From assembly GCA_041659325.1 (NCBI GenBank), contig JBAZYN010000002.1, positions 64,513 through 128,512 on the forward strand: a stretch of DNA of 64,000 bases. The letters are read 5' to 3'. Shown here in pieces: positions 14,202 through 37,988 of this stretch. The notes below the pieces were generated by a model. That model worked only from the letters and a program-made list of their open reading frames with translations, ran no database searches and was not told the DNA's origin. Each line of letters begins with the position of its first letter. Position 1 is the stretch's first letter. The position numbers were made by a program, and so were the translations under genes. This DNA is from Candidatus Shapirobacteria bacterium (GTDB lineage Bacteria > Patescibacteriota > Microgenomatia > UBA12405).

Positions 14202-14264
14202 CATAAAACAGGTTCTAACTGCGTGGTTCGATAAACTCATCATTATAATCAACAGTTCGCCGCC
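14202..14264 (+). repeat. S-repeat copy 1 (box A CATAAAACAGGTTCTAACTGCGT; degenerate or duplicated box B ...CAGTTCGCCGCC)
   Basis: Member of an 8-copy intergenic repeat family. Confidence 0.7.
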
Positions 14265-14576
14265 AAATTTCTATTTCCCCTTGTTGTTCCGTGTACCATA
14301 GGTTTCATGGTGGCGTATCAATGAATGGCACTCGAAGCTGGTAACAAACTTTCATTGGCTACATCGAGAAAGGTGACCGAAACCCTTCGGCCTAAACAGC
14401 GGCCAAAGTAGCCAAGGTTTTGGTAGTGTCAGAAGAGGAAGTATTTAAGTCGATCATATAGAGGCTCCTAACTATGGGGTATCCTCTACTCAATCGTCGT
14501 GATGTACTTCATTATATTGTTAATTATTCTGTAGTTCCGTATAATCTGATTGCTACCATATAGGGTAGCTTTTTTT

Positions 14577-17558
14577 ATGCCAAAATCATTTGACGATTTA
14601 TTAGATAAAGACCAAATTAAAGAGAGACTGGTAACTGTGGTGGATGCGGAATTGGCTGACAAGATCTCCGAGAAGTTTTGGAGACTGGATTCTTTTGCTA
14701 ACTTGATTTCAATTCCCTTTTTTTTAAACTTTTTGGTTGATTTTCTAAAGGAAACGAGGCTAAAGGGCACATTTAGTAAATATGACTTTTACGGATATCT
14801 ACTTAGAAAAGTGTCTGGTGGCGGTGAATTTTTAGATAAATTAACACAGCTCGCTTTGGTCGTGGAACTGCACCAGGTTAATGAGTTTGACCCGACTGGA
14901 TTTAGTGGAATACTAAACGGCCTTGGAATCAATTCGGAAGATTTAGAGCGGACTGGTTTAATAGAAAAAGACAAAAGGGATGAAAAAGATGTGATCGGTT
15001 TTTGCCACCATACAATTTCCGAATTTTTAGTAGCTAACTTTTTGTTCGGACAGGACGATTTTATCGATAAGTTGGAAAAATTTGCTTTGGTTAAAGATGA
15101 TAAAAATGTATTGGCGATTGCCTTTTCTTGGTATGGGGTAATTAGGTTCTTATTAGACAGCGACAAAAGCATTGAGGTCCGAAATTGGCTGTTAAAACTG
15201 GTGGAGGGCAATAAAGAGTTGGTTGATGATGGTTTTTGTAATGCGATTACTTCTGTTGAATCTAAAGATTTATCCCAAAAAGAGAAAAAATATATTTTTG
15301 ACCTGGTTTATGATACTTATCAGGGTAAAAAGGTATGGTTGCCAATTTGGACCAGAGTCGGGTTGCCTAATTTTTGCGGAAAAGACAGCTATGAGAAGCT
15401 CAAGGTTGATGTTCAAAATGGTAGTGGAACAGAAAGTGATGTCTTGGTGAGAAAAGGAACGGCAGTAGATATAGTTGCCAGATTAATGGAAAGCAATTCC
15501 CCTCTCATCGCCGGTAGTGAAAAAGAATGGTGGAAAGAAAAGTTGGTTGACCTCGCCAACGATGGTAATGACAATGGGGTGGTCCAGAGACACGCTTTGA
15601 CAGCGTTGGCAACTTATCATGACGTGGGTCTCATACCAAGACTGGGGAGATGTCTTAGCCACAAGGATAACCTGGTGAGGGAGGCGTTTATTCAATTTTG
15701 CTCGGAGACTAATCCTAACGATGAGACAACAATCAATCTGTTAGTGAAGGGAATTGTAGAGAAAGGAACGGATATTTACTCGCGACACGGATTTTACCAA
15801 ATTACATCAAAAGAAGGGGTAAAAGTATTTTTAAAACACCTGGTTAATAGTTCTCATTTCCTGAAAAAGTTCCTAGATAAGGAAAGTATTTTTAATAGTA
15901 AAGACAAAAACTCAGATGAGGTTATTGTTAAAAGAATCGAAGAGTTTACAGATACCGAGATTATTGGGCAACTTAAGCAAATTATTAAAAACTCCTTTGA
16001 ACAGGGTGAAATATATGATCAGGGACGGTCATATTTTCTCAAGAGACTAGCTTTAGTTACAGGAATAAATTACCCAGAGTATATTTTTGAACTGATTGAA
16101 AGGATTAGGGAAAGTGACGGGGATAAATGGGGATTAGCATACGATTATAGTGATCTTTTTTCTTGGCTGATAACCACAGAAAATGTAACGGAATTTTATA
16201 AACGGCTTAGTGGTATCAATGAACGTTGTAAAAGGCTCGCAGAAAAGGTGATATATGGCACTAGGTACGGAGACGAGGCTGTCTATAAGACAGCTGTCAA
16301 AAATAGACTGGTAACTAAGATAGAGGACCTTGAGGATCATGTACAGAACCGTGACAGAGATGGAGAAATTCTTAAAGAATTTCGACAGTTTTTGGGGACC
16401 GATAGTGACAAAAAATATTTTCCGTCAGTATTTGAGTATTTTGTCCAAAACCAGAAACTGATCACATCGAAATGGACGAAGCAAGAAAAGGAACGATTAA
16501 AAAAATTGGTAATAAATGAAGGGCTTGAGAAGATTGATCCTAAAAATATTGTAGTAAAAATTCAAAAGAGTGAAGGCGGTAGGGCTAATCAGTACAATAT
16601 TTCAAGAGTGGCGTCATATTTTGGAGACGTGGTAAGGACAGCAATAGTATTAGGATTAAACCTTAATAAATACAGACAAAAGATTATCAACTTTATCCCA
16701 TTTGCCTATTCCGACGATAGGCAGGCAATAAGTGAAGTTGTTGATCAAATAGAAGATAAAGATTTGGCGTGGGTCAACCAAGCCTATGCTGATAAAACTG
16801 GCGATATTAGGTATTTTTTACCGGACTCATATATATATTTAGTTCGAGACTATCGGGAGAAAGGTTGCGAACTTGGTTCAGCAAAAGAGATACTATTGTC
16901 TTTTGCTATAGACGGTGGATTGAGCAACCAGGACAGAAGGTATGCGGTTGAAACACTAGGGGAAATGGTGGACCAAAGTGATTTAGAGATCAAGGATGAA
17001 CTCGAAAAGGATTTAGGGTCAGAAGAAGTTAATAAAGTAGCAATGGATGTATTAATTGCAGTATTTAAAGATGATAGAGCGATAAAAGAAAGAATCGGAC
17101 AGATTAAGGCATGGTCAACAGAAGCAGAAAAATACGCAGTACCAGAATCGGGGGTTTGTCATTCAGTGTCTTCTGTTGAAGAAGAAATGGATGGAATGTC
17201 TTTAGCACAACCACTAATGAAAATGGGTGACGATCGGTACAAAAATGAATTTATCGGTCTTTTAAATTATTCAGTTGAAATATTAAAAGATGATGAGAAA
17301 AAGGAAGTTTTGTGGACCTATGTGAATTACTTATGGAGAACCGTTATTGGATATTTTAACGGATTAGAGAACAAAAACTTTGAGATTATCGGGGAATTGG
17401 AGGACTGGTTAGTCAAAAACAGAGACGTTGATAAGGTTAACTGGTTCGAAGGGAGATTGGTCACACTAAAGCAGTCCTACATAGAAGAAAGTAGTAAAAA
17501 AACCACTAGTAAAGCATTACGAATTATCACAGAAATATATGGCCATATTCATGACTGA
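14577..17558 (+). CDS. large HEAT/ARM-repeat protein with an N-terminal NACHT-like remnant (5'-truncated STAND NTPase?)
   Basis: FCHHTISEFLVANFL resembles the NACHT motif F-x-H-x-S-x-QEFLAA; an upstream PFFLNFL motif resembles the NACHT PLLL motif; there is no Walker A. The frame is closed by TGA at 14547. The ORF-track start is TTG at 14550, with ATG at 14577. Confidence 0.5.
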   Translation: MPKSFDDLLDKDQIKERLVTVVDAELADKISEKFWRLDSFANLISIPFFLNFLVDFLKETRLKGTFSKYDFYGYLLRKVSGGGEFLDKLTQLALVVELHQVNEFDPTGFSGILNGLGINSEDLERTGLIEKDKRDEKDVIGFCHHTISEFLVANFLFGQDDFIDKLEKFALVKDDKNVLAIAFSWYGVIRFLLDSDKSIEVRNWLLKLVEGNKELVDDGFCNAITSVESKDLSQKEKKYIFDLVYDTYQGKKVWLPIWTRVGLPNFCGKDSYEKLKVDVQNGSGTESDVLVRKGTAVDIVARLMESNSPLIAGSEKEWWKEKLVDLANDGNDNGVVQRHALTALATYHDVGLIPRLGRCLSHKDNLVREAFIQFCSETNPNDETTINLLVKGIVEKGTDIYSRHGFYQITSKEGVKVFLKHLVNSSHFLKKFLDKESIFNSKDKNSDEVIVKRIEEFTDTEIIGQLKQIIKNSFEQGEIYDQGRSYFLKRLALVTGINYPEYIFELIERIRESDGDKWGLAYDYSDLFSWLITTENVTEFYKRLSGINERCKRLAEKVIYGTRYGDEAVYKTAVKNRLVTKIEDLEDHVQNRDRDGEILKEFRQFLGTDSDKKYFPSVFEYFVQNQKLITSKWTKQEKERLKKLVINEGLEKIDPKNIVVKIQKSEGGRANQYNISRVASYFGDVVRTAIVLGLNLNKYRQKIINFIPFAYSDDRQAISEVVDQIEDKDLAWVNQAYADKTGDIRYFLPDSYIYLVRDYREKGCELGSAKEILLSFAIDGGLSNQDRRYAVETLGEMVDQSDLEIKDELEKDLGSEEVNKVAMDVLIAVFKDDRAIKERIGQIKAWSTEAEKYAVPESGVCHSVSSVEEEMDGMSLAQPLMKMGDDRYKNEFIGLLNYSVEILKDDEKKEVLWTYVNYLWRTVIGYFNGLENKNFEIIGELEDWLVKNRDVDKVNWFEGRLVTLKQSYIEESSKKTTSKALRIITEIYGHIHD

Positions 17559-18270
17559 CAAAGATGGCCACAATGCTGAATTGAGGTCTGACCGAGAGTA
17601 TCAACCTTATCCTTCTACCGCCAATGAGAAGAGTATAACTGAAGAGCATGTTTTGCGAGATGACCGCCCGATTCCAACACGACCTGTATGTAGAGTGGAG
17701 AGTGTCGACGAAATTTACGGCAAGGTTGTCGCGTTCAGTACCGGACAAGGCCAGGAAAATCCATTGACTGAAAGCGATAATCAGAGTGCAGAAACTGAGA
17801 ACGATACCATCAAAGGGGAGGAAGATCGTTGTATGGAGTTTAAATCTTCCCTAAGGTGGGATTACCACCAAAGTAAAGTGAACACAGAACTTGAGCTTGA
17901 GGTTATTATAGAGATGGCCGCTTTTCTAAATACTAAAGGAGGACAGGTTATAATTGGGGTGAATGATGAAGGGTGTATTCTAGGACTTGATAACGACTTT
18001 AAAACTTTAGGAAAAAAGCAAAATAGAGATGGTTTTGGGCTTCAATTGGATAATCTTATCAGTAATTTTTTGGGTGGCGGAGTTTATCCGTACATAACGC
18101 TGGAATTCCAACAAAAGAATGAAAAAGATATTTGTATAATAAGAGCCAAAAGATGTAACCATGAAGTTTATGTAGGAAAAGATAGGGATTTTTATATTAG
18201 ACGGTTTAAATCCAAGGTGAAATTAAATAGCGAAGAAGCACATCGATATATTAATGAAAATTGGAGGTAA
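17539..18270 (+). CDS. AlbA_2 (Schlafen-like) domain protein
   Basis: EFK...W and GG.VIIGVNDEG.ILG motifs characteristic of Pfam AlbA_2; overlaps the upstream gene by 20 nt. Confidence 0.55.
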   Translation: MAIFMTDKDGHNAELRSDREYQPYPSTANEKSITEEHVLRDDRPIPTRPVCRVESVDEIYGKVVAFSTGQGQENPLTESDNQSAETENDTIKGEEDRCMEFKSSLRWDYHQSKVNTELELEVIIEMAAFLNTKGGQVIIGVNDEGCILGLDNDFKTLGKKQNRDGFGLQLDNLISNFLGGGVYPYITLEFQQKNEKDICIIRAKRCNHEVYVGKDRDFYIRRFKSKVKLNSEEAHRYINENWR

Positions 18271-18282
18271 GTACCTATCTCC

Positions 18283-18651
18283 TTACTTCCCCCACTTTCT
18301 TGCTACTTCAAGTAGTTCCTCGCCTAACTTCTGAGCACTATCCCTGTACTCTTTTGCAATCCTTTCATCATTAACTGTCATAAGTAGGGCTTTTTTTAGA
18401 AAATTTCTGTGTTGACACCATGCATCTATAAATCTCCTTAATTTGGTTCCAACCTCGATATCGATGGCCTCGATTTGTGTAGCTCTAAACTTAATATGTT
18501 GTTCACTTGTTGCTCTTATCCTGAAACCCTTGTGCATACCCTCAATACAAAAAGAATTTACATCTTTTGCGGCTTGTATTTTTACAGCTCTTTTATGTTT
18601 TCTATTCTCAAAAAACTCATTAATCCAACCTTCACCGAATTTAGCAATCAA
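18283..18651 (-). CDS. hypothetical protein (possible additional N-terminal TM helix upstream with a non-ATG start)
   Basis: 122-aa ORF. The in-frame upstream sequence encodes a hydrophobic helix back to a TAG stop at about 18760, without an ATG. Confidence 0.35.
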   Translation of the reverse strand: MIAKFGEGWINEFFENRKHKRAVKIQAAKDVNSFCIEGMHKGFRIRATSEQHIKFRATQIEAIDIEVGTKLRRFIDAWCQHRNFLKKALLMTVNDERIAKEYRDSAQKLGEELLEVARKWGK

Positions 18652-18778
18652 GGCAATAATAACTCCTCCTATTGCACCAAGAATGGCCGTAATTTTTGGA
18701 TTAGATAACAGCTCGTTTAATATATGAATATTATAGACCTTACTTATATTGGGTTGTTGCTAGATTGTATGGTATAGA

Positions 18779-18815
18779 CATAAAATAGGTTCTAACTGTT
18801 CAACGGTTTATCGTC
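18779..18815 (+). repeat. S-repeat copy 2 (box A intact, box B degenerate)
   Basis: CATAAAATAGGTTCTAACTG...GGTTTATCG. Confidence 0.6.
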
Positions 18816-19738
18816 TATTTTTCGGGGGGACAAAGTTCATCAAACATGTTTGAAAGTTGGTGAATTTTCACTCCCTCTCCGGTATCGTACCAATCAATTT
18901 TCGGAGCATTATAGTTTGGAATTTCAAAACTATTTAGCTTGTCGAGGTCTTCTTGCTCAATCTGAAAATCAAACGATGCCAGGTTTTCATCGACATGGTT
19001 TTTAGTGCTTGATTTGACCAGTGGGAAAAACCCTTTTGATACTACCCAATTAAGAATGATTTGATTTTGACTTTTGCCGTATTTTTGAGAGAGCTCGACT
19101 AATAAAGGCCAATTTCTTGATGCCGTCATATTCCTTCGCAAGGGCTGGTAGATAACATTGAGAATGTTATTTTGTTGAGCATAACCAGTCACGCCAAGTT
19201 TTTCATTTTCCCGAACTTCGAAATTAAAAGCACCTTCATGAGCAAATAGCTTGTCACCTAGTGCCTCATGGTATGTTTTTAGAAACTCTGGGCTGGAATT
19301 TGTCAGGCTAGTGAACCTAGTCTTACCTTCACCGATAAGTTTATCAATCATCGTTTTTATAGCTTCCAACCCTAAACCCCTGACAAGACCCATCGTAAAC
19401 TGAACACTGTCAATATGGTCTGTCCCAAGTGTACTCAAGAAATCATCTACACGATTCTCCGCCTCCTCAATAGTGCTGGCATCCTTCTGATACACAGATA
19501 GGGTTACAAAAATGTTATTTCTATCGACACCTGACTTTTTAACAGCTTGTGACAATAAATCAACAGCCTTGCCTTGAGCATACATATAGACTGTTTCGAC
19601 ATAATTTACGCCTTTGTTAAGGGTATAAGATAATGCGTCAATCTGACCTGAATCATCGTTATTAACGTCAGCCTCCATAAAGCCACCAATTCCCCAAGTA
19701 CCAATTCCCATTTTTGAAAAGTCACTTTTTGTTATCAT
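18815..19738 (-). CDS. aldo/keto reductase
   Basis: 307 aa with AKR-family (TIM-barrel oxidoreductase) sequence pattern, including an N-terminal GIGTWGIGG motif. Confidence 0.75.
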   Translation of the reverse strand: MITKSDFSKMGIGTWGIGGFMEADVNNDDSGQIDALSYTLNKGVNYVETVYMYAQGKAVDLLSQAVKKSGVDRNNIFVTLSVYQKDASTIEEAENRVDDFLSTLGTDHIDSVQFTMGLVRGLGLEAIKTMIDKLIGEGKTRFTSLTNSSPEFLKTYHEALGDKLFAHEGAFNFEVRENEKLGVTGYAQQNNILNVIYQPLRRNMTASRNWPLLVELSQKYGKSQNQIILNWVVSKGFFPLVKSSTKNHVDENLASFDFQIEQEDLDKLNSFEIPNYNAPKIDWYDTGEGVKIHQLSNMFDELCPPEK

Positions 19739-19805
19739 ATAGAACGATTATACTAAGTTGTTGACGATACTAGGGCAAATGAATCTAAATTGTGATCCGA
19801 AAGGT

Positions 19806-19842
19806 TCATAAAATAGGTTCTAACTGCGTAAATGGTTGCCCG
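19806..19842 (+). repeat. S-repeat copy 3
   Basis: CATAAAATAGGTTCTAACTGCGT AA ATGGTTGCCCGG. Confidence 0.7.
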
Positions 19843-19961
19843 GTTGAGTTGATATTTTGTCTATGCGGAACCTAATGAAGGAGAAAAAGTCAGATATAGT
19901 TTGGTTTTGTAATCAATTACATAAGTATCTTGCTGTTTTTGGTTTATAATATGCGGGCAAG

Positions 19962-20660
19962 ATGGATTACCAAGAGGAATATATACATAAGCACCCTAGC
20001 TTACACCTAGAGCAGGCGCAGCTGAAAGCTAAACAAATATTGGATTTTTTAGGACCAATTAAAATTAATTCTTTATTAGATATTGGTTGCGGGTCTGGTG
20101 GAATAACAGAAATTTTAAAAGATTATCTTAAGCCTACTAAAGTGGTAGGCGTAGACATATCACAAACAATGATTCTGGCTGCCAGAGAGCGCGATAAAAT
20201 GAAACGGATAGAGTGGATATGCGAGGATATTCTTACATATCATTCCAAAACCAGATTTGACCTTGTGGTTGGTGTCGATATTCTAGAACACATAAGCGAT
20301 GACGTGGAATTACTAAAAATAATTCACCGACTGGGAAAAAAGGTGCTGATTAAAGTACCGATGGAGGATTCCTTTTTAGATAACCAAGTGATTCGGAAAC
20401 TAGGAATAAGTGACTCATGGAAAGAAAGCGAAAGAAAATATGGACATATTCACCACTACAATGAAAGACAACTACTAGAAATCTACAAGGGTGCTGGTTT
20501 TAGAATTATTAAATCGGGCTACATTCCCTTACCAAGAAGATCAAAGATGTTATACGAAGTCTTGAGAGTGTTATTCTTGCCGCTTGGATGGTTTTCAAAA
20601 AAAGCAGTAGCAAATTTTGTTGGTGGGTTTAAAATAGTATTAATGGAGCCGAGTAAATGA
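19962..20660 (+). CDS. class I SAM-dependent methyltransferase
   Basis: Motif I LDIGCGSGGIT. Confidence 0.75.
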   Translation: MDYQEEYIHKHPSLHLEQAQLKAKQILDFLGPIKINSLLDIGCGSGGITEILKDYLKPTKVVGVDISQTMILAARERDKMKRIEWICEDILTYHSKTRFDLVVGVDILEHISDDVELLKIIHRLGKKVLIKVPMEDSFLDNQVIRKLGISDSWKESERKYGHIHHYNERQLLEIYKGAGFRIIKSGYIPLPRRSKMLYEVLRVLFLPLGWFSKKAVANFVGGFKIVLMEPSK

Positions 20661-21157
20661 AGAATATAGAGCCTAAAGTTACAGAATTCTTCGTCTTCGA
20701 TGGTAGAAAGATTCAATTAAGTTGGTTTTTGGGTTTGCCAGATCCATCTCTAAAAGTTAGTCAGGTAAGTGCTTATTGTATCTATATAAAAAAGTTAATA
20801 CTGGTGAAAAATAAGAGGGGTTGGGGTATACCGGGCGGACATCCGGAAGATCATGAAACATGTGAACAGGCACTGAAAAGAGAGTTGTATGAGGAGGTAG
20901 GTATTGAAAAGAATTTTCAATCCAAACTAATAGGTTGGATGAAAGTAGAAGACCCGGGAAATCCAGGCCTTGAGGGAAAAGTTAGTATTCAGCTGAGATA
21001 TGTAATAATATTAGATGAACTACCAGCATTTACTCCTAACCCAGAAATCTTCGAACGGAGGCTGGTAGATATTAATGATTTTGACAAGTATGTCAGTTGG
21101 GCTTCTAGCCCGACCGGAAGAGCGCAAATCAGCGCGTTAATTTTAAATTTGATATGA
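20657..21157 (+). CDS. NUDIX hydrolase
   Basis: Nudix box GGHPEDHETCEQALKRELYEEVGI; 4-nt overlap with the upstream gene. Confidence 0.7.
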   Translation: MKNIEPKVTEFFVFDGRKIQLSWFLGLPDPSLKVSQVSAYCIYIKKLILVKNKRGWGIPGGHPEDHETCEQALKRELYEEVGIEKNFQSKLIGWMKVEDPGNPGLEGKVSIQLRYVIILDELPAFTPNPEIFERRLVDINDFDKYVSWASSPTGRAQISALILNLI

Positions 21158-28552: not shown

Positions 28553-28585
28553 AATTGAAGAATCTGCCGTAAAAATTATACCGTC

Positions 28586-28954: not shown

Positions 28955-28992
28955 GTGGATTTATTATAAATCCAAACTTACGATATATTGTT

Positions 28993-29051: not shown

Positions 29052-29062
29052 CAGTAAGACAA

Positions 29063-29819: not shown

Positions 29820-29854
29820 TCAATCAACCCCCCGGGGTCTTAGGGATTTTTTAG

Positions 29855-30697: not shown

Positions 30698-30785
30698 AAT
30701 TAAGTTAATTGTACACCTCGCTTTTAACAAAAAAAGGTTCGAGCATCGTTTCACACTTTTCGCCCGTGTTGTCGGCAAGGTATAA

Positions 30786-31427: not shown

Positions 31428-32383
31428 GCTCTGACTACATCAGCCAAATCGGGTTCCTTAATGTTTAGATCTTCAACCGGAAGATGTGAGTAAATTTCGA
31501 TGGCTTTTTGTTTAGCGAGTTCCTTTGGAACTTGGATAATAGCTCGAGGGTAGTTTAGTTCTTTTACTTCCCCGATCAGCTCGAGCTCTTTTCTTGAAAC
31601 TTGTTTTTCTAAGGTAATTTCAAAAGTTTTATGATAAGTATATTTTTTAACCAGATCTTTTAGACAGCCATCAAAAACAATCTGGCCTTTATTGATCATA
31701 ATCACCCGTTTACACAGGGCTTTAACATCTTCCATATAGTGAGAAGTCAGGATAATAGTTGATTTAAATTCCTGATTAAAATCTTTTACAAAACTACGAA
31801 TACGTTCCTGCATAACGACATCCAACCCAATAGTGGGTTCATCTAAAAATAAAACTTCAGGAGAATGAATCAGAGCGGCGATCAATTCGGCTTTCATTCT
31901 TTCACCCAATGACAATTTTCGAACCGGGATGTCCATGAGGTGGCGAAACTCGAGCATATCTAATAAACGATTTAGTGTCTTGTTAAAAGAATCAGAAGGA
32001 ACCTGATAGATTTCTTTATTAAGCTGAAAAGTTTCTTGGGCAGGAAGATCCCACCAAAGTTGATTTTTCTGACCCATAACTAAACTCATCCTTTTTAAGT
32101 AATCCCGTTTTCTTTCCCAGGGGGTGTAGCCCAAGATTGAGATTTGTCCTGATGTTGGATAAAGTAAACCGCTTAAGACTTTAAGGGTGGTGGTTTTGCC
32201 GGCCCCATTGGGACCAATAAAACCAACCAACTCACCTTTTTCAATTTCGAATGAAACATCTTTAACGGCCTCGACCGAAACTGTTTTTTTCTTGATAAAG
32301 GACTTTAATGAGCCAATTAAACCGGGTTCCTTTTTGTCGGTTCGATAGGTTTTGACTAAATGATTTACTTTAATAGTTGGCAT
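31364..32383 (-). CDS. ABC transporter ATP-binding protein
   Basis: Walker A GPNGAGKTT, signature LSLGERMK, Walker B LFLDEPT. Confidence 0.85.
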   Translation of the reverse strand: MPTIKVNHLVKTYRTDKKEPGLIGSLKSFIKKKTVSVEAVKDVSFEIEKGELVGFIGPNGAGKTTTLKVLSGLLYPTSGQISILGYTPWERKRDYLKRMSLVMGQKNQLWWDLPAQETFQLNKEIYQVPSDSFNKTLNRLLDMLEFRHLMDIPVRKLSLGERMKAELIAALIHSPEVLFLDEPTIGLDVVMQERIRSFVKDFNQEFKSTIILTSHYMEDVKALCKRVIMINKGQIVFDGCLKDLVKKYTYHKTFEITLEKQVSRKELELIGEVKELNYPRAIIQVPKELAKQKAIEIYSHLPVEDLNIKEPDLADVVRAYFMASSTIKTLFPSGPNTAS

Positions 32384-32385
32384 AG

Positions 32386-33237
32386 TTATGAGCTGGCACT
32401 AGTATAACGTTTAAGCGACCAAAACCAGAACCACCGCGTGAAACAGAAAAAGATTATTCCAACAACGATGGCATAGAAAAATTTAAGAGTAGATTGTTGG
32501 CCCATGATAGCTTCGGCAGGAAAAGTGGTAAACAAAATTATGGGTATAAGTGAAGAAAAGACGTATTCCAAATTTTTTGGATAAGCACTACCAGGAAATT
32601 TGGAAACTTCAGCCAAATCGGGTACCGCATAAAATAAATTGTCAGCAAGAATAAAGTGAATACTTAGAGAGGCGGCAAAGAACCAAATGGAATAATAAAG
32701 GGATAAACTAACAGCGGTGAGGATAAAATATTTTATAACATCAAAAGGTGATGGAGCAACATTCATAGCGGTCAAGGCATAGATAACAACAATGAAACCT
32801 TCAATCACCCCGCACATAGCATTGAGAATAACCCGGCGGAAAGAAACGAAGAATTGACTGTCTAGTGGTTTAATAAGCACATAATCAAGGTCACCTTTGT
32901 GAACATCATTTACCACCTGTTTCATGTTGCGATAAAAGAAAAAGTAAGCCAGACCGTTATTAATCATCCAGGAACCAATAAGTAACAACATTTGGCTTTT
33001 GTCCCAGCCGCCAAAACCGCCAGTAACTGAGTTTAAGACTAAGATTAAAACCAGAGAATAATTGACCCATCCAACACTGGAAACTAAGTTACTAATAAAG
33101 TCCAAACGATAGGCCATGTCTCTTTGGATCGAGTGTTTGGCTAATGAAAGAAATATTTTTAGGTGGGTTTTACCGTCTTTTAAAAACTGCTTAATCATAG
33201 CCCGACTCCGGAAAACTTTTTTATACCTGCTTGCCAA
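32386..33237 (-). CDS. ABC-2 family transporter permease
   Basis: Six TM helices, adjacent to the ABC ATPase. Confidence 0.55.
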   Translation of the reverse strand: MASRYKKVFRSRAMIKQFLKDGKTHLKIFLSLAKHSIQRDMAYRLDFISNLVSSVGWVNYSLVLILVLNSVTGGFGGWDKSQMLLLIGSWMINNGLAYFFFYRNMKQVVNDVHKGDLDYVLIKPLDSQFFVSFRRVILNAMCGVIEGFIVVIYALTAMNVAPSPFDVIKYFILTAVSLSLYYSIWFFAASLSIHFILADNLFYAVPDLAEVSKFPGSAYPKNLEYVFSSLIPIILFTTFPAEAIMGQQSTLKFFYAIVVGIIFFCFTRWFWFWSLKRYTSASS

Positions 33238-33986
33238 TTTAGGTTATAAAGAAAAAACAGAATAATGGTCCAAAGTAGTTGAATGCCCAGTCCAATTAAG
33301 ATATCGGGGAGAGCATATTTTCCAATTAATACCTGGACTGGAAAATAGATAGTGTATTTAAGTGGAGTAAAGTCAATGATCTGACGAACAACTAATGGAA
33401 AAAATGTTAAAGGGAAAGCGGAACCGGTAAAGAGAATTCTAATCATATCCGATAAGTTGCTTATGCCAGTTGTCTCAGTAAGATGAAAAGCCAGTGTTCC
33501 AATTAATATCGACATGGTAAAACTGAGAAAATAAGAGCCGATGACAGCAACAAGACCTAATAAGATAGTTAAGATATCCGGGGCTAGTTTAATATCAACT
33601 TTGGCGATCAATAGAATTAATATGAGAGGAACAGCAAAAACCAATAACTTAACGGTGTGCCAGGCTATCTCCCAAGATAAACGATAAGCAAAATAATTAA
33701 AAGGTTTGATTACAAAATTAGATAATTCGCCATCTTTTATATCATCAGTAACATTGACTTGGACCCGGGAACTAATAAGGGTAACTATCACGGTAACAAT
33801 ATAGTAGCCGAGTAATTCCTGATAAGTGAATCCTCTAACTTTTCCACCGGAAGCATAATATTTACTCCAGATAGCAATCATGACCAGAGGAGTAGAAGTG
33901 TTGATGAAAGCGTATGTAAAAATTCTAGCCCGATAAATCAGTGCTCTTTGAAGTGTGCTAGTAAAAATTAACCAATAGCATTTCAT
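33195..33986 (-). CDS. ABC-2 family transporter permease
   Basis: Polytopic membrane protein in the same operon. Confidence 0.55.
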   Translation of the reverse strand: MKCYWLIFTSTLQRALIYRARIFTYAFINTSTPLVMIAIWSKYYASGGKVRGFTYQELLGYYIVTVIVTLISSRVQVNVTDDIKDGELSNFVIKPFNYFAYRLSWEIAWHTVKLLVFAVPLILILLIAKVDIKLAPDILTILLGLVAVIGSYFLSFTMSILIGTLAFHLTETTGISNLSDMIRILFTGSAFPLTFFPLVVRQIIDFTPLKYTIYFPVQVLIGKYALPDILIGLGIQLLWTIILFFLYNLNWQAGIKKFSGVGL

Positions 33987-34061
33987 GACGAGTGAAGTAT
34001 ATCACCGTAAAAATGTGTTTACGGGTTGGATGATAAGTAGACCGACAAGATATAATTAGCC

Positions 34062-34589
34062 ATGGTTGAAACTCATCCGTTTGGAAGCTTTGTGCCTAAG
34101 AATTGTCAGTTTTTGTTTTTGGGAACTTTTACAGCCAAAGTAGATGACCCATCATATGATTGGTTTTTTACATCGAAAAGAAACCAATTTTGGATAATAA
34201 TGACAGAAGTTTACGGGATCAAATTGACAAACAAAAAAGAAAAGGAAAATCTATTTACAGAGCTAAAAATGGCGATAACTGACATTATTCTTCAATGTGA
34301 GCGAAGCGAAAATACGAACGCTGATAATAATTTGATCAATATGGTTTTTAATGTAAAAGTTATAAATAAGATTATTACGGAAAACAATATAGAAACGATC
34401 TTTTTTTCCAGTCGGATGGCGGAAAAATTGTTTAAGAATAATTTCAAAGAAATAAAAATAAAGTTCCCTCAAATTAATTTTGTGACATTGCCTTCATCTT
34501 CTCCAAGATATGCAGCGATGACAAAATTAGAAAAAATCAGATATTACAAGGAGTTGCTACCAAAGTTGAACTCATTAAATAGGTTTTAA
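34062..34589 (+). CDS. hypothetical protein, possibly uracil-DNA glycosylase superfamily
   Basis: C-terminal LPSSSPRYA resembles UDG motif B (HPSP..); weak; leaderless start in GATATAATTAGCCATGG. Confidence 0.3.
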   Translation: MVETHPFGSFVPKNCQFLFLGTFTAKVDDPSYDWFFTSKRNQFWIIMTEVYGIKLTNKKEKENLFTELKMAITDIILQCERSENTNADNNLINMVFNVKVINKIITENNIETIFFSSRMAEKLFKNNFKEIKIKFPQINFVTLPSSSPRYAAMTKLEKIRYYKELLPKLNSLNRF

Positions 34590-34632
34590 TTACGTAATTC
34601 AACAGGTTCACTATAAATCGATGGTTCGCCAC
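34573..34632 (+). repeat. S-repeat copy 7 (long-spacer form)
   Basis: CATTAAATAGGTTTTAATTACGT, 25 nt, ATGGTTCGCCAC; the upstream gene's stop lies inside box A. Confidence 0.7.
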
Positions 34633-34649
34633 ACTGATATAATAATCTA

Positions 34650-35087
34650 ATGATAATTCATTTCGTATGTTTGGGAAATATTTACAGAAGTCGATTGGCT
34701 GAGGCATATCTTAACTCAAAAAAATTACCCAATGTCTCAGTTATCTCCTCAGGCATAAGCGCGTCCGAAAATAATAATCGACCAATTTCTTGGTTAACGC
34801 AGAGACTTTATGAAGTCTATAAACTAGTGCCCTTTCAAAAATCTAATTGGGCGCAAACCTCAAAGGTTTTACTTGACTCGGCTGACCTAACCATATTTTT
34901 TGATAATAAGTACTACCAATATTGTGTTGAAAATTTTGGATTTAATTCGGATAATTTTGAAATTTGGGAGATTGCTGACCTTGATGGAAACATAAAAGAA
35001 CATTTAGAAAAAATTAAAATAACAGAAGACTCGTTTAGGGTGATAAAGGAAAGAGTAGATAATTTGATTGAGCGGAGAAAGTTCTAG
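34650..35087 (+). CDS. low-molecular-weight protein tyrosine phosphatase / ArsC-family protein
   Basis: N-terminal CLGNIYRS P-loop (C-x5-R-S). Confidence 0.7.
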   Translation: MIIHFVCLGNIYRSRLAEAYLNSKKLPNVSVISSGISASENNNRPISWLTQRLYEVYKLVPFQKSNWAQTSKVLLDSADLTIFFDNKYYQYCVENFGFNSDNFEIWEIADLDGNIKEHLEKIKITEDSFRVIKERVDNLIERRKF

Positions 35088-35126
35088 CTGTAGAAAAGAA
35101 GAGGATCTGTTGGTTTTAGTATAATA

Positions 35127-35657
35127 ATGGCGATGATCGTATTTATTAATGGTTCTTTTGGGGTTGGTAAATCATCGGTTGCCGAACTTCTGGCAAAAAA
35201 GATCCCCAACAGTCTCTTGTATGATGCGGAAGAGGTGGGGTATATGCTCCGAAAGATAGGCAAACCAATGGGCTTTCCTGAAGATTTTCAAGATTTACCG
35301 GCCTGGCGAATACTTACGGTAAAAACAGCTGAACTCCTTAAGCAAGAGTACAACAAAAATTTAATAATGCCTCTGTGTGTTTGGAATGAAATGTACATTG
35401 ATGAAATTGTTTCTGGCTTAAAAGCTATAGACAAATATGTTTATCATTTCTGCCTGGTGGCCGACAGGGAAACCATCCTAAAAAGGCATAGCAATAGAAA
35501 TGATTCTTTGGAAGTGACTAAGTGGGTACACGAGAGAGTGGATAAATGTTTAAAATCTCATCGGTCACCAAAGTTTGAGGTTAAAGTTCAAACTGAAAAT
35601 AAATCGGCAGAGGAGGTGGCAGAGGAGATAGTTTCACTTTTGGGAAGCAAAAAATAG
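35127..35657 (+). CDS. P-loop kinase (TmrB / chloramphenicol phosphotransferase-like)
   Basis: Walker A GSFGVGKSSVA close to the N-terminus, about 175 aa. Confidence 0.55.
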   Translation: MAMIVFINGSFGVGKSSVAELLAKKIPNSLLYDAEEVGYMLRKIGKPMGFPEDFQDLPAWRILTVKTAELLKQEYNKNLIMPLCVWNEMYIDEIVSGLKAIDKYVYHFCLVADRETILKRHSNRNDSLEVTKWVHERVDKCLKSHRSPKFEVKVQTENKSAEEVAEEIVSLLGSKK

Positions 35658-35725
35658 ATTCATATATTATCAGGGCTGTGGTAACTTTCGGTGAGGCTTC
35701 AAAATTGATTGTTTAATTTGATACA

Positions 35726-37036
35726 ATGGCTTTTGAGGATATGAAGAAATTGGTGTTGATAATTTTGAGCGTGCTATCTGTACTGGTTGCTAACTCCGTA
35801 CATGCGGTTGATCACCCACAGGGTAATTTTGTTTTGGCGGGGGGCAAAATCCGGATGACGGACGAGGCTGACCCGTTTGAAAGAATCGATAAGACTTTTT
35901 TTGCATCAATCATTGTCCCGGTAAAAGACGGAGAAATTAATTTTTTTAATACCAGACCAATCGATTTGGAGAGCGGTAGTCAGCACTTTGTCGGCAAAAT
36001 GGAGCTTAGTTTGAAGGGGAACTATGACAAGGAAACCGGTGTCATCAGTGCAAATTTCACTCAAAGCAATGAAAACTCCTATGAAAGAAAAACAGGTAAC
36101 GGAATACGGGTGGGTAGTGGTACTTCTGTTTTTGTGGGCACGGCCAAGGGAACAGTTATCGATAATCAGGTAGTACTGTCTTTTGAGGGAAAACTATCGG
36201 GCGAGTCCGTCTCTGAGGCAAATGACAAGCATGTGGATAATAATTCTTCTAATAATGTTCCTTGGGTAAAGAAAGTAGAGTTTGGAACTAGTGAATGGGT
36301 GGTACAGGCGGAAGAGGAAAAACAGGAGGCTGGAGAACCGCCCAGAGATTCGGGAATAAGAATGTCTGATGTATCAGGCCAGGTAGAAATCGCCTGCCCT
36401 CCCGACCTTGAGGCATGGGATGTACTGAAAATGGGCAGGGTTCTATATGTTGATTGTCATATTAAAACAGGAGAAAACAGCAAGGCGGTAATATCTTTCC
36501 CTGATATGACCACTTTTGAAATGAAGCCGGAGTCAGAAATAGTTTTGGACACTCCTCCGGAAAAAGATTCTAAATTAAAACTTTTGGCCGGGAATATATG
36601 GGCGAATGTTAAAAAAATGGTGAAAGACGGGACGATGGAGGTCCATATGGGTCAGGCGGTGGCGGGAATTAAGGGGACGACTTTTGTGCTGGAAGAAAGA
36701 GAAAATATGTCAACTCTGAAGGTGATTGAGGGGGGGGTGGCTTTTAAGTCTAAAGTCACAAATGATGAAAAATCGGTCAATCCGGGGGAAATGCTGTCGG
36801 CTACCAGTGCCGGGCTTGGAGAAATAAAGACATTTGATGTGGCAAGTGAAAGTGCTTTGTGGGAAAGTAACAAGCCGACAGCGGAGACAAACAAGAACAC
36901 TGACATTGGATCGACTTTGACTGAAAATACAGTTGATAAATCCGACGGGAAAAACTACACTCTACCGATAGCCGGTCTGGTAGTTTTCGGAATAGGTGGG
37001 TTTGTATTTCTTAAAAGAAAGCAATCTCGGTTATAG
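35726..37036 (+). CDS. secreted FecR-like domain protein with C-terminal membrane anchor
   Basis: Signal peptide; C-terminus LPIAGLVVFGIGGFVFLKRKQSRL (LPxAG-like motif, hydrophobic stretch, basic tail). Confidence 0.45.
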   Translation: MAFEDMKKLVLIILSVLSVLVANSVHAVDHPQGNFVLAGGKIRMTDEADPFERIDKTFFASIIVPVKDGEINFFNTRPIDLESGSQHFVGKMELSLKGNYDKETGVISANFTQSNENSYERKTGNGIRVGSGTSVFVGTAKGTVIDNQVVLSFEGKLSGESVSEANDKHVDNNSSNNVPWVKKVEFGTSEWVVQAEEEKQEAGEPPRDSGIRMSDVSGQVEIACPPDLEAWDVLKMGRVLYVDCHIKTGENSKAVISFPDMTTFEMKPESEIVLDTPPEKDSKLKLLAGNIWANVKKMVKDGTMEVHMGQAVAGIKGTTFVLEERENMSTLKVIEGGVAFKSKVTNDEKSVNPGEMLSATSAGLGEIKTFDVASESALWESNKPTAETNKNTDIGSTLTENTVDKSDGKNYTLPIAGLVVFGIGGFVFLKRKQSRL

Positions 37037-37077
37037 GGCTAAAAGGGGGCAAACAGAGTAGTTTTGACTGGTATAAT

Positions 37078-37947
37078 TTGAATGTGTCGTCAATATTTTT
37101 TGCTTGGGTTGCCGCTATCGCTTATGGTTTTTATTCTATTGTCGCCAAGTTAATCGGTGAATATAAACTTAAAAACACTTATCAATTCTCATTTTTTGTC
37201 ACCTTTTTTAGTGGTGTTGTTATGGCGATTGTATCTTATATCTACGGCGGAAGAATCCCTTCTAACTGGACCTATATTCTACTTGCCGCTATGTTCCTGG
37301 CGCTCGGAAATGCTCTTTACTTGTCCGCACTAAAAGTTTTAGATATTTCGGTTATGTCTCCACTCTTCAATTTACGGGTTGACAGTACAGCTCTGCTTGG
37401 GTTTCTCGTTTTGGGAGAGACTTTTTCATTGAAATCATTGAGTATAATCATTGTTATTTTTATTGCAGGATTTTTTTCTTCAATGGATGAAAAGTTTTCC
37501 ATTAAGTCATTTTTTGCTAAAAATATTGGTTTGGGCCTCTTTTTTATGTTGGTTCTTTCCATCCAATCGATATTTATTAACCGCGCCATAGACCAAACCA
37601 CTTATTGGACGGCGATACTTTGGATAAGCATTATGGCTGTCATTTTTTCCTTTGTCTTTCTTTATCCAAAATTCAAACATGACTTACGACGGACTAAAAC
37701 TAAAGATTACTTGGGAGTAGGGGTGTTGGCCATTATTGGTGGAGTTGGCGATCTTGCCGCTTTCAAAGCTTATGAAAGCAATGTCGGGTTGTCTTCGGTG
37801 ATTATTTCCCTACCGATTTCTATGATTATTGTTTTTATTCTTTCGATTTGGAAACCAACACTTTTAGAAAAACACTCCTTAAAAGTTTATTTCGTTCGGT
37901 TTGTTGCGGCTGGAACCATGATTTGGGGAGCGTTGCAACTCGGATAA
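37078..37947 (+). CDS. EamA/DMT family transporter
   Basis: 10 TM helices, duplicated EamA-like halves; the start TTG/GTG follows TATAAT immediately. Confidence 0.55.
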   Translation: MNVSSIFFAWVAAIAYGFYSIVAKLIGEYKLKNTYQFSFFVTFFSGVVMAIVSYIYGGRIPSNWTYILLAAMFLALGNALYLSALKVLDISVMSPLFNLRVDSTALLGFLVLGETFSLKSLSIIIVIFIAGFFSSMDEKFSIKSFFAKNIGLGLFFMLVLSIQSIFINRAIDQTTYWTAILWISIMAVIFSFVFLYPKFKHDLRRTKTKDYLGVGVLAIIGGVGDLAAFKAYESNVGLSSVIISLPISMIIVFILSIWKPTLLEKHSLKVYFVRFVAAGTMIWGALQLG

Positions 37948-37951
37948 AGTT

Positions 37952-37988
37952 CGTTAAAATAGGTTTAACTGCGTGAATGGTTCGCCGC
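37952..37988 (+). repeat. S-repeat copy 8 (short-spacer form)
   Basis: CGTTAAAATAGGTTTAACTGCGT GA ATGGTTCGCCGC, 5 nt after the EamA stop. Confidence 0.7.

What the first reader, a model, noticed from the sequence alone, without database searches (positions are those of the whole stretch)
14202..37988. Eight-copy bipartite intergenic repeat divides 24 kb into gene modules (integron-like cassette array lacking an integrase?)
A conserved box A (c)ATAAAATAGGTTCTAACTGCGT and box B (A)ATGGTTCGCCGC occur at 14202, 18779, 19806, 27053, 28993, 29761, 34573 and 37952. They are always intergenic, always in the same orientation, and separated by a 2-nt or an approximately 23-28-nt spacer. In six of eight cases the repeat begins 0-50 nt after the stop codon of a + strand gene; in two cases (29761, 34573) the stop codon lies inside box A. 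The units between repeats carry functionally unrelated cargo: NLR-like plus AlbA_2, aldo-keto reductase, a 9-gene nucleotide/sugar operon, dCTP deaminase, methyltransferase, ABC exporter, phosphatase/kinase, EamA, SDR. This placement resembles attC sites after integron cassettes, but the two boxes are direct rather than inverted repeats. They may therefore be a new class of recombination site, a family-specific regulatory module, or small-RNA genes. No tyrosine or serine recombinase is encoded in the window. The array ends after 37988.
Basis: seen in the sequence. Interest (0 to 1): 0.8.

Follow-up and report, generated by a model that had tools for sequence, protein, structure and literature searches.

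The report
Attachment-site repeats of tRNA-Ser island array
The eight repeats are attachment-site junctions left by small mobile gene modules that pile up one after another behind a serine tRNA gene in candidate-phyla-radiation bacteria, so the region resembles a staphylococcal-cassette-type composite island rather than an integron or a set of regulatory RNAs.

Summary
Eight co-oriented copies, plus a ninth degenerate half-copy at 31418, of a 36-nt or about 60-nt repeat (F1) cut 14.2-38.0 kb into modules.

F1 is not an attC site, an RNA or a promoter. The array starts 2.9 kb downstream of tRNA-Ser(GGA) at 11239-11326, on the tRNA strand. It sits in a conserved anchor: ClpC, tRNA-Arg(CCG), NUDIX, tRNA-Ser(GGA).

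The same repeat occurs in about 40 related loci, probably all from candidate-phyla-radiation bacteria.
- In all 15 of those loci that hold a tRNA-Ser, it lies downstream of the tRNA on the same strand.
- In 10 of 10 contexts a large serine recombinase gene abuts the 3' end of a tRNA gene. In 8 of them the repeat closes the far end of the inserted element.
- Box A is the conserved arm of the element. Box B is an abridged copy of the target tRNA's 3' end.
- Empty and occupied sites exist, modules are present or absent between relatives, and synteny breaks at the repeat in 12 of 12 comparisons.

The window itself encodes no recombinase, so its array is a relic or is moved in trans. The closest analogue is the SCCmec composite island. 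I rate it a new variant of a known kind, of moderate interest.

The parts
8006..10453 (+). ClpC-type AAA+ chaperone gene. It is the first member of the conserved anchor that precedes the array.
   Evidence: Pfam AAA_2, AAA_lid_9 and ClpB_D2-small. The same ClpC, tRNA-Arg(CCG), NUDIX, tRNA-Ser(GGA) order is seen in L208, and partly in L063.
10477..10551 (+). tRNA-Arg(CCG), part of the anchor.
   Evidence: ARAGORN and Rfam. The same pair of tRNAs flanking a NUDIX gene occurs in L018, L027, L032, L041, L055, L063, L090, L206, L208 and L210.
10587..11087 (+). NUDIX hydrolase gene between the two tRNAs, part of the anchor.
   Evidence: NCBIfam NUDIX-type matches. A NUDIX gene occupies the same position in L206, L208 and L210.
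11239..11326 (+). tRNA-Ser(GGA). Its 3' end (..GGGTTCGAATCCCGCCCTCTCCGCCA) is the inferred primary attachment site (attB left half) from which the array extends.
   Evidence: ARAGORN. In 15 of 15 related loci that contain a tRNA-Ser, the repeats lie downstream on the same strand. In 8 further contexts a serine recombinase gene abuts this tRNA end.
11327..14201 (+). Module 0, between the tRNA and the first repeat. It holds three ORFs without family assignment (11674-11928, 12017-12796, 12855-14150); the last carries an HD-like motif seen by eye.
14202..14263 (+). F1 copy 1, long form: box A, a T-arm-like hairpin, box B, then CA.
   Evidence: 86% identity over 74 nt to L028.
14264..18778 (.). 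Module 1: 1002-aa HEAT-repeat protein (+), Schlafen/AlbA_2 protein (+) and a conserved 122-aa ORF (-).
18779..18815 (+). F1 copy 2, short form with a degenerate box B. It lies between two - strand genes.
   Evidence: The upstream flank is conserved with L035 and L110 but the downstream flank is not.
18816..19806 (-). Module 2: a single aldo-keto reductase gene (18815-19738, - strand).
19807..19842 (+). F1 copy 3, short form with a perfect box A.
19843..27052 (+). Module 3: a nine-gene operon (methyltransferase, NUDIX, GT4, HprK-like kinase, NDK-like, NUDIX, GT2, HAD, NUDIX).
   Evidence: Homologous GT4, GT2 and NUDIX genes lie downstream of an F1 in L119.
27053..27091 (+). F1 copy 4, short form. 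It is followed by a conserved hairpin extension to about 27152.
   Evidence: 77% identity over 99 nt to L108.
27092..28992 (.). Module 4: 93-aa ORF, LPO_1073/Vpar_1526-family protein (+) and a dCTP-deaminase-like gene (-).
28993..29052 (+). F1 copy 5, long form.
29053..29759 (+). Module 5: a single methyltransferase gene (29063-29764) whose stop codon is the TAA of box A.
29760..29819 (+). F1 copy 6, long form. It is followed by a hairpin and T-run terminator-like sequence.
29820..31417 (.). Module 6a: EamA transporter gene (-) and a 213-aa 2H-phosphoesterase-like gene (+, 30786-31427).
31418..31441 (+).
   Evidence: The orthologous gene in L055 is followed by a full long-form F1.
31442..34572 (.). 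Module 6b: ABC ATPase and two ABC-2 permease genes (-), and a deoxyinosine-glycosylase-like gene (+, 34062-34589) that stops inside box A.
34573..34632 (+). F1 copy 7, long form.
34633..37952 (+). Module 7: LMW phosphatase, AAA_18 kinase, FecR-domain protein and EamA transporter.
   Evidence: The EamA gene plus repeat is 77% identical to L109, and homology ends at the end of the repeat.
37953..37988 (+). F1 copy 8, short form and the last of the array. An SDR gene and a malic enzyme gene follow.

Best explanation
The repeat (F1) is the attachment-site junction of a family of small integrative elements. These elements insert at the very 3' end of tRNA-Ser genes in Microgenomates-type candidate-phyla-radiation (CPR) bacteria.

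How I think it works:
- Each element brings cargo genes and carries F1 at its tRNA-distal end.
- Box A ((c)ATAAAATAGGTTCTAAC) is the element's own conserved arm.
- Box B (..CAATGGTTCGCCGC, often followed by CA) is an abridged imitation of the tRNA's T-loop-to-acceptor end. It stops at the same ..CCGC(CA) boundary where the crossover takes place.
- Insertion happens right after ..CCGC(CA). The tRNA therefore stays intact, and every inserted element leaves a new ..CCGC(CA)-terminated site behind it.
- Successive insertions stack up as a one-directional array: tRNA | module | F1 | module | F1 and so on, with all repeats co-oriented with the tRNA.

The enzyme is most probably a large serine recombinase. 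Its gene lies convergently against the tRNA end in related genomes.

The window holds such an array (8-9 junctions, 24 kb) but no recombinase. Its modules are therefore either relics or are moved in trans, like the ccr-less elements in staphylococcal SCC composite islands.

Shown: the anatomy, the tRNA anchoring, the linkage to the recombinase in relatives, empty and occupied sites, and module polymorphism.
Inferred: that the serine recombinase catalyses the events, the crossover position, and whether the window's modules are still mobile.
For: 1. Anchoring. The window array starts 2.9 kb downstream of tRNA-Ser(GGA), on its strand. In 15 of 15 related loci that contain a tRNA-Ser, every F copy is on the tRNA strand and downstream of it. 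All 14 sources with more than one copy (the window and 13 loci) have only co-oriented copies.

2. Recombinase linkage.
- Pfam finds Resolvase, Recombinase and Zn-ribbon proteins in L003, L038 and L123.
- In L038, L123, L206, L207, L208, L209, L210 and L211 (tRNA-Ser), L212 (tRNA-Met) and L213 (tRNA-Gln), the recombinase gene's 3' end abuts the tRNA 3' end. That is 10 of 10 contexts.
- A repeat with box A closes the element 5.5-10.5 kb away in 8 of the 9 contexts with enough sequence.
- L208 and L210 have the window's own anchor followed by the recombinase.

3. The right half tracks the target tRNA.
- The sister repeat F2 matches the tRNA-Ser(GGA) 3' end at 19 of 23 positions without gaps and ends at the same base.
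- The L211 repeat ends ..CTCCGCCA, like its own tRNA.
- In L212 (tRNA-Met target) box A is joined to a diverged tRNA-Met 3' end.
- In L209, F1 sits exactly where the 3' end of tRNA-Ser(GCT) sits in the other copy of a duplicated junction.
- F1 is followed by CA in 14 of 55 copies.

4. Empty versus occupied site. L016 and L090 have tRNA-Ser(GGA) directly followed by a flank and a 243-aa gene. L018 has the tRNA, then 2.83 kb of cargo ending in F1, then the same flank and gene at 77% identity.

5. Module polymorphism. L123 has geneX, one F1, then Y. L028 has geneX, F1, about 6.2 kb with two more F1 copies, then Y.

6. Twelve of 12 informative cross-genome pairs share only one flank of the repeat.
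Against: - No recombinase is encoded in the 64-kb window, and none of its eight modules shows a recombinase remnant. The link to the serine recombinase therefore rests on other genomes.
- F1 itself resembles the tRNA 3' end only loosely (GGTTC and the terminal CCGC(CA)). Clear homology is shown only for F2 and for the tRNA-Met variant.
- F1 lacks the overall dyad symmetry usual for serine-integrase sites. Only a GTCAAT/ATTGAC inverted pair appears in reconstructed attP, and only in some loci.
- Canonical serine integrases do not recombine attP with attL or attR. Stacking therefore needs a promiscuous enzyme or repeated use of the tRNA end.
- Several window copies carry indels in box B, as expected for inert scars.
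- Most loci are metagenome contigs, so some mosaic junctions could be assembly joins. However, complete or near-complete genomes (L209 CP066685.1, L041/L002) show the same structures.
Confidence: 0.78

Rival explanations
1. Inert fossil scars. The array records ancient serial integrations, the modules are now fixed chromosomal genes, and the repeats have no present function. This is a sub-variant of the best explanation and differs only on present activity.
For: The window has no recombinase. Five of eight window copies have indels or a degraded box B, and one further copy is reduced to half a box A.
Against: Across species whose GC content ranges from 26 to 48%, F1 keeps the same consensus. 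Genomes about 90% identical in the flanks differ by whole modules. A recombinase-free 2.83-kb module sits precisely at the tRNA end in L018. These observations imply recent events and selection on the site.
Confidence: 0.4
2. An integron-like attC array without an integrase (a CALIN). The repeats would be folded single-strand recombination sites for an IntI-type tyrosine recombinase encoded elsewhere.
For: The repeats are placed after genes, sometimes contain the stop codon, are in direct orientation, and separate unrelated cargo. RNAalifold can pair an AAC..GTT pair in the repeat.
Against: - No stable hairpin forms on either strand: -1.7 to -4.1 kcal/mol, z from +1.1 to -1.1.
- TTCTAAC and GTTCGCC are not complementary.
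- The commonest form is 36 nt, below the attC size range.
- Modules hold up to nine genes in both orientations, and promoter-like -10 boxes follow the repeat.
- The linked recombinase in relatives is a serine recombinase next to a tRNA, not intI with attI.
Confidence: 0.03
3. A cis-regulatory or RNA element (terminator, 3'-UTR element, small RNA, operator or promoter) that is conserved for expression and only incidentally serves as a patch of homology for recombination.
For: The repeat is co-oriented with tandem genes in 23 contexts against 0 in the opposite orientation. In 23 of 64 copies the upstream stop codon lies in box A. Promoter-like TATAAT boxes often follow. The 5-bp stem in the long form covaries, with 96.7% of cells paired and four Watson-Crick pair types at one position.
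Against: - No Rfam family matches.
- Folding is no better than shuffled sequence.
- The repeat occurs between divergent genes and antisense to both neighbours (18779; L032, 24 nt from a - strand start codon).
- The distance to -10 boxes varies from 5 to 30 nt.
- Separate hairpin and T-run terminators follow it.
- The stem matches a tRNA T-stem (GTGGT/ACCAC against GTGGG/CCCAC), so its covariation may be inherited.
- This reading does not explain the tRNA anchoring or the recombinase linkage.
Confidence: 0.07
4. A REP/MITE-like non-autonomous repeat spread by a trans-acting transposase (for example a RAYT/IS200-type HUH enzyme), which later serves as a substrate for homologous recombination.
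For: It is short, intergenic and orientation-biased, and no transposase lies nearby.
Against: - It has no terminal inverted repeats, no target-site duplication and no strong palindrome.
- It is not dispersed. Copies cluster downstream of tRNA-Ser, and a 19-mer scan of 185,579 species genomes found only 9 stretches.
- No orthologous site has both flanks conserved with the repeat simply present or absent.
- The right half changes with the target tRNA.
Confidence: 0.04

Closest known systems
Staphylococcal cassette chromosome (SCC/SCCmec) composite islands
   Same: - Large serine recombinases (Ccr) insert elements at the 3' end of a conserved gene without destroying it.
- Each element is bounded by direct repeats that carry the integration-site sequence.
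- Elements stack in tandem in one direction.
- Recombinase-less elements (psi-SCC) sit in the same arrays.
The definition of SCC is taken from PMC12648241. Stacking and trans-mobilisation are from my own knowledge.
   Different: - The target here is the 3' end of a tRNA (Ser; Met or Gln in relatives), not rlmH.
- The hosts are CPR bacteria.
- The recombinase is a single gene convergent with the tRNA. Its orthology to CcrA/B/C was not tested.
- The repeat has a 17-nt conserved arm plus an abridged tRNA end, rather than the SCC integration-site sequence with terminal inverted repeats.
- Modules can be as small as one 0.7-1 kb gene.
tRNA-anchored genomic islands and ICE/CIME accretion arrays (tyrosine-integrase type)
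   Same: Integration occurs at the 3' end of a tRNA gene. The direct repeats derive from the tRNA 3' end. The integrase gene lies at the tRNA-proximal end. Tandem accretion leaves integrase-less, cis-mobilisable modules flanked by att sites. These family features are stated from my own knowledge.
   Different: The recombinase found here is a large serine recombinase, not a tyrosine integrase. The commonest repeat (F1) is not a faithful copy of the tRNA end but a conserved 36-nt element shared across many species. The modules are cassette-sized.
Integron cassette arrays and CALINs
   Same: An ordered, co-oriented array of recombination sites separates unrelated cargo. Stop codons often lie inside the site. 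Arrays without a recombinase exist.
   Different: There is no folded attC structure, no R''/R' boxes, no IntI and no attI or Pc. Modules are multi-gene, lie in either orientation, and are followed by promoter-like -10 boxes.

Membership tests
Integron attC / CALIN | Complementary R'' (RYYYAAC) and R' (GTTRRRY) boxes at the two ends of the site | tested here: not met
   Box A has TTCTAAC and box B has GTTCGCC. Only AAC/GTT can pair (sequence).
Integron attC / CALIN | A stable imperfect hairpin of the single strand, with sites of about 57-141 nt | tested here: not met
   DNA folding of the consensus short, long and F2 forms on both strands gives -0.4 to -4.1 kcal/mol and z from +1.1 to -1.1. The short form is 36 nt.
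Integron attC / CALIN | An IntI tyrosine recombinase with attI at one end of the array, at least somewhere in the lineage | tested here: not met
   No Phage_integrase hit in the window, and none among the 25 most frequent families in a batch scan of 139 ORFs from related loci. The recombinases at the array ends are serine recombinases.
tRNA-anchored integrative island array | The array lies immediately 3' of a tRNA gene and is co-oriented with it | tested here: met
   In the window, tRNA-Ser(GGA) is at 11239-11326 and the repeats begin at 14202, all on the + strand. The same holds in 15 of 15 related loci with a tRNA-Ser and in 8 recombinase-bearing contexts.
tRNA-anchored integrative island array | Direct repeats derived from the 3' end of the target tRNA | tested here: inconclusive
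   Met for F2 (19 of 23 positions, gap-free, same end), for the tRNA-Met variant in L212 and for the L211 variant. F1 in the window shares only GGTTC and the terminal CCGC(CA).
tRNA-anchored integrative island array | A site-specific recombinase gene at the tRNA-proximal end | tested here: not met
   Not met in the window: no recombinase, and no tblastn hit. Met in relatives, where a large serine recombinase abuts the tRNA 3' end in 10 of 10 contexts.
tRNA-anchored integrative island array | Empty and occupied versions of the same site in related genomes | tested here: met
   L016 and L090 are empty, and L018 is occupied by 2.83 kb plus F1. L123 has one repeat where L028 has about 6.2 kb with three repeats. 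This was not tested for the window's own lineage.
SCC-type cassette chromosome | Ccr-family large serine recombinase | not tested
   The recombinases have the Resolvase, Recombinase and (in some) Zn_ribbon_recom domains. Orthology to CcrA/B/C was not examined. I therefore file this as 'works like', not as a member.
SCC-type cassette chromosome | Integration at attB in the 3' end of rlmH (orfX) | tested here: not met
   The anchor is a tRNA gene.
SCC-type cassette chromosome | Tandem elements demarcated by direct repeats, including recombinase-less elements | tested here: met
   The window has 8-9 repeats, and none of its modules has a recombinase. L207 reads tRNA | LSR element | F1 | second LSR element. 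L018 carries a recombinase-less module.
REP / MITE-type dispersed repeats | Palindromic core or terminal inverted repeats, target-site duplication, and genome-wide dispersal | tested here: not met
Described structured RNA families (Rfam 15) | A match to a covariance model | tested here: not met
   Only four tRNAs match at gathering threshold. Nothing matches at the repeats at E<5.

The most novel reading that the evidence does not exclude
F1 may be an active, self-propagating landing pad of a serine-recombinase-driven gene-capture platform in CPR bacteria. Under this reading, recombinase-less cassettes as small as one gene are excised as circles and re-inserted in trans at any ..CCGC(CA)-terminated site, whether the tRNA end or another F1. 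That would be a third, independently evolved cassette system alongside integrons and SCC, and a main route of accessory-gene exchange in these minimal genomes.
Probability: 0.3. Interest if true: 0.75.

Novelty: new variant of a known kind. Interest (0 to 1): 0.55.

Why it matters
- CPR bacteria have genomes of about 1 Mb and are generally thought to carry few mobile elements. This repeat marks a conserved hot spot behind tRNA-Ser where accessory genes are loaded and shuffled. The cargo includes nucleotide house-cleaning enzymes, transporters and glycosylation operons, and, in relatives, restriction-modification, OLD and CBASS systems.
- The 36-nt tag gives a simple handle for finding such cargo and its boundaries in metagenomes.
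- The associated large serine recombinases have short, definable tRNA-end target sites. They would be candidates for genome-engineering tools.
- For annotation, the finding explains a conspicuous repeat that could otherwise be misfiled as an integron, a regulatory motif or an RNA gene.

Tried and rejected
- **Rfam.** Searches at gathering threshold and at E<5 found nothing at the repeats.
- **Literature.** A search for the sequence and for CPR integrons or repeats found nothing relevant.
- **attC-type folding.** Rejected.
- **Promoter readings** (sigma-70, extended -10, sigma-54, ECF, FliA). Rejected by eye, because the spacings do not fit and real -10 boxes lie at variable distance downstream.
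- **Resemblances to the T7 promoter (ACTCACTATA in the long form) and to the E. coli Ter site.** Noted and dropped as post-hoc matches without support.
- **DNA-uptake sequence.** Rejected because copies are clustered and in a single orientation.
- **DGR, retron and tRNA-fragment-of-neighbour ideas.** Rejected on sequence.
- **GC skew as a test of replication-linked orientation.** Uninformative, with 33 agreeing and 8 disagreeing.
- **My regular-expression screen for recombinase motifs.** It gave a false negative. The serine recombinases were found only by a Pfam batch scan.
- **Viral-contig scans.** Scans for F1 and for the recombinase family found only chance matches or distant relatives without F1.
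- **PADLOC on window cargo.** No hits.
- **The look-up of encoding contigs for a window protein.** It found only the same strain.
- **Limits.** Exact crossover mapping from polymorphisms inside the repeat was inconclusive.

Full report
**1. The observation**

The consensus short form is (c)ATAAAATAGGTTCTAACTGCGTCAATGGTTCGCCGC, 36-37 nt. I call this repeat F1.

- Four window copies are short: 18779, 19807, 27053 and 37953.
- Four are long: 14202, 28993, 29760 and 34573. They carry about 23-25 extra nucleotides between GCGT and CAATGG.
- Box A within 3 mismatches occurs 5 times against 0.00 expected from shuffles.
- No copy lies outside 14.2-38.0 kb.

I add a ninth, box-A-only remnant at 31418-31441. 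It lies at the stop codon of a real + strand gene (30786-31427) whose orthologue in L055 is followed by a full repeat.

Three copies (18779, 19807, 28993) follow - strand genes.

Pfam and tblastn find no recombinase in the window.

**2. The repeat elsewhere**

A 19-mer from box A occurs in only 9 stretches among 185,579 species genomes. Two of these are labelled Shapirobacteria and Roizmanbacteria. The others carry Gammaproteobacteria, Pseudomonadales and Eubacteriales labels, which I suspect are wrong.

A gapped pattern found many metagenome contigs. After filtering, about 40 loci hold about 64 non-redundant copies of both forms, in genomes of 26-48% GC. The source organism is therefore probably a Microgenomates-type CPR bacterium (inference).

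- All 14 sources with more than one copy (the window and 13 loci) have only co-oriented copies.
- Box A carries stop codons in all three frames. In 23 of 64 copies the upstream co-oriented ORF ends inside it.
- In tandem gene contexts the repeat is co-oriented with the genes 23 times and opposed 0 times. It also lies between convergent genes (13 cases) and divergent genes (9 cases).

**3. What it is not**

- Rfam has no match, even at E<5.
- Neither strand of any form folds better than shuffled sequence: -0.4 to -4.1 kcal/mol, z from +1.1 to -1.1. It is therefore not an attC-type hairpin.
- Downstream TATAAT boxes lie 5-30 nt from box B. It is therefore not a core promoter.
- Separate hairpin and T-run terminators follow some copies. 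It is therefore not the terminator.
- It occurs 24 nt from the start codon of a divergent gene (L032) and antisense to both neighbours (window 18779). This argues against a transcript-level role.

**4. It is a recombination junction**

Among 12 informative pairs of copies from different genomes that share one flank at 71-100% identity, none shares the other flank.

- Homology between L016 and L090 (91% over 1.3 kb) stops exactly at ..GCCGC.
- L123 has geneX, one repeat, then Y. L028 has geneX, a repeat, about 6.2 kb holding two more repeats, then Y.

**5. The anchor**

ARAGORN on the related loci showed that 15 of them contain a tRNA-Ser (GGA, TGA or CGA). In all 15 the repeats are on the tRNA strand and downstream of it. 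Most show the same tRNA-Arg(CCG), NUDIX, tRNA-Ser(GGA) trio as the window (10477-11326).

A sister repeat, F2 (GATAGAAAGGTTCCAGACTCACCCTCTCCGC), is present in several loci but not in the window. It matches the last 23 nt of tRNA-Ser(GGA) at 19 of 23 positions without gaps and ends at the same base.

F1 shares the GGTTC of the T-loop and the terminal CCGC, and is followed by CA in 14 of 55 copies.

The 5-bp stem in the long form covaries: 96.7% of cells are paired, with GC, AU, CG and UA all seen at one position. The stem has the sequence of a tRNA-Ser T-stem (GTGGT/ACCAC against GTGGG/CCCAC). I therefore read it as a second relic of a tRNA T-arm rather than evidence for an RNA gene.

**6. The recombinase**

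A Pfam batch scan of 139 ORFs from the related loci found large serine recombinases (LSRs) in L003, L038 and L123. My earlier motif screen had missed them.

In L038 and L123 the gene runs convergently into the 3' end of tRNA-Ser(GGA). A database search found 271 relatives at E<=1e-30. The few named ones are from Levy-, Pace-, WWE3, Saccharimonadales and other CPR bacteria.

I fetched eight contexts (L206-L213).

- In all eight the recombinase gene's 3' end abuts a tRNA 3' end: Ser-GGA or Ser-TGA in six, Met in L212 and Gln in L213.
- L208 and L210 have the window's own anchor, followed by the recombinase (ClpC, tRNA-Arg(CCG), NUDIX, tRNA-Ser(GGA) in L208; the tRNA-NUDIX-tRNA trio in L210).
- A repeat with box A, on the tRNA strand, closes the element 5.5-10.5 kb away in L038, L123, L207, L208, L209, L210, L211 and L212.
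- Cargo in these elements includes a primase, HTH proteins, type I restriction-modification, an OLD nuclease and CBASS.

**7. Anatomy of the site**

Box A stays the same whatever the target tRNA. The right half follows the target.

- In L212 it is a diverged tRNA-Met 3' end.
- In L211 it ends ..CTCCGCCA, like its own tRNA.
- In the complete genome L209 the element is flanked by two identical tRNA-Ser(TGA) genes. The left one is preceded by the 3' end of tRNA-Ser(GCT) (..CTCCGC|CAA). The right one is preceded by F1 (..CGCCGC|CAA).
- In L207 a second recombinase gene runs into F1 exactly as the first runs into the tRNA. F1 can therefore take the tRNA's place as an attachment point.

Two further details fit serine-integrase sites, but they are inference only.

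- GGTTC lies 23 nt from the CCGC end in the tRNA and in F2, but 28 nt from it in F1. This is like the 5-bp offset between attB and attP half-sites (own knowledge).
- In several loci the sequence after the tRNA (CAAGATTGAC) is inverted relative to the GTCAAT of F1, with the centre of symmetry in GCCGCC.

**8. Empty and occupied site**

L016 and L090 have tRNA-Ser(GGA) directly followed by a flank and a 243-aa gene. L018 has the tRNA, then 2.83 kb ending in F1, then the same flank and gene at 77% identity. Homology resumes at the last base of F1. The insert carries a DsbD-like gene and an ArsP-type permease gene but no recombinase.

**9. Conclusion and comparison**

The window holds a tRNA-Ser-anchored, one-directional stack of 8-9 cargo modules separated by att-type junction repeats, without its recombinase.

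It works like an SCCmec composite island, in which large serine recombinases insert elements at the 3' end of a conserved gene, direct repeats bound the elements, and recombinase-less elements occur (PMC12648241). It also works like tRNA-island accretion. It is not a member of the integron family, whose defining features were tested and not met.

I found no description of this system.

- Confidence that the repeats are att junctions of tRNA-targeted integrative modules: about 0.8.
- Confidence that the serine recombinase is the enzyme: about 0.7.
- Confidence that the window's modules are still mobile: about 0.3-0.4.

Noticed in passing
L016 849-889 and 1873-1928; L032 7015-7037; L090 4187-4209; L110 4327-4349; L123 682-704; L106: A second repeat family (F2, TTATAGrGATAGAAArGTTCCAGACTCACCyTCTCCGC) lies in the same arrays, co-oriented with F1. 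It can replace F1 at an orthologous position: L009 has F1 upstream of the 120-aa gene where L016 and L090 have F2. F2 is absent from the window.
   Followed up: partly
L126, L002/L041, L009, L005, L016, L106 and L123, just after F1 or F2: A conserved near-palindromic block, TGTCGTGACAAT, lies immediately upstream of a TATAAT box at the start of several modules. It looks like an operator-promoter unit carried by the modules. It is not enriched in the window (5 matches against 3.8 expected).
   Followed up: partly
window 30786-31427 (+), against 29855-30853 (-) and 31364-32383 (-): A real 213-aa 2H-phosphoesterase-like gene overlaps the starts or ends of both - strand neighbours as the ORFs are drawn. 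It converges on the ABC ATPase gene with a 64-nt overlap that covers the degenerate box A.
   Followed up: partly
window 18283-18651 (-): A 122-aa ORF without any family match is conserved, together with its upstream spacer and the adjacent F1, in L035 and L110 (71-78% nt identity). An overlapping + strand ORF (18443-18727) is probably spurious.
   Followed up: partly
L038, L123 and L206-L210, about 57 nt beyond the tRNA end, inside the recombinase gene's 3' end: The 10-mer AGGTTCTAAC, the core of box A, is conserved at nucleotide level in the antisense of the recombinases' C-terminal 'SLEP' codons. It is in direct orientation with box A at the far end of the element. In L038 a second block (GAAGTCACTATA) matches the long-form insert at 11 of 12 positions. 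The meaning is unclear: an accessory binding site, or an old att relic absorbed into the gene.
   Followed up: partly
window 27092-27152; L108, L117: A conserved extension of about 60 nt after the repeat contains CTTCGGCGGATAAATCTGC-type hairpins (77% identity over 99 nt to L108). It may be a terminator carried with the junction.
   Followed up: no
window 41531-48478; L206 4550-11261: A BlaI/Penicillinase_R, DsbD_2-HMA-cupredoxin, copper P-type ATPase, cupredoxin operon is conserved in gene order with L206. In L206 the tRNA-Ser anchor and a recombinase lie right next to it.
   Followed up: no
window 14-38 kb and related loci: Cargo is rich in nucleotide house-cleaning and nucleotide-modifying enzymes: at least four NUDIX genes, plus dCTP-deaminase-like, NDK-like, AAA_18 kinase, HAD and LMW phosphatase, deoxyinosine-glycosylase-like and 2H-phosphoesterase-like genes. 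NUDIX is also the commonest neighbour in other loci. No PADLOC defence model matches.
   Followed up: partly
window 383-546: A second tRNA pair, Arg(GCG) and Ser(CGA), lies near the start of the window. In L003 and L027 the equivalent tRNA-Ser genes also have F1 copies downstream, but no copy follows this pair in the window.
   Followed up: no
window 1-64000: GC skew is positive in 30 of the 32 2-kb windows. The whole window therefore probably lies on one replichore, with the + strand leading.
   Followed up: no
L001, L003-L007, L009: Several MAG records that hold the repeat are labelled Gammaproteobacteria, Pseudomonadales or Eubacteriales. Their gene content and tRNA anchors look like those of CPR bacteria, so the labels are probably wrong.
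   Followed up: no
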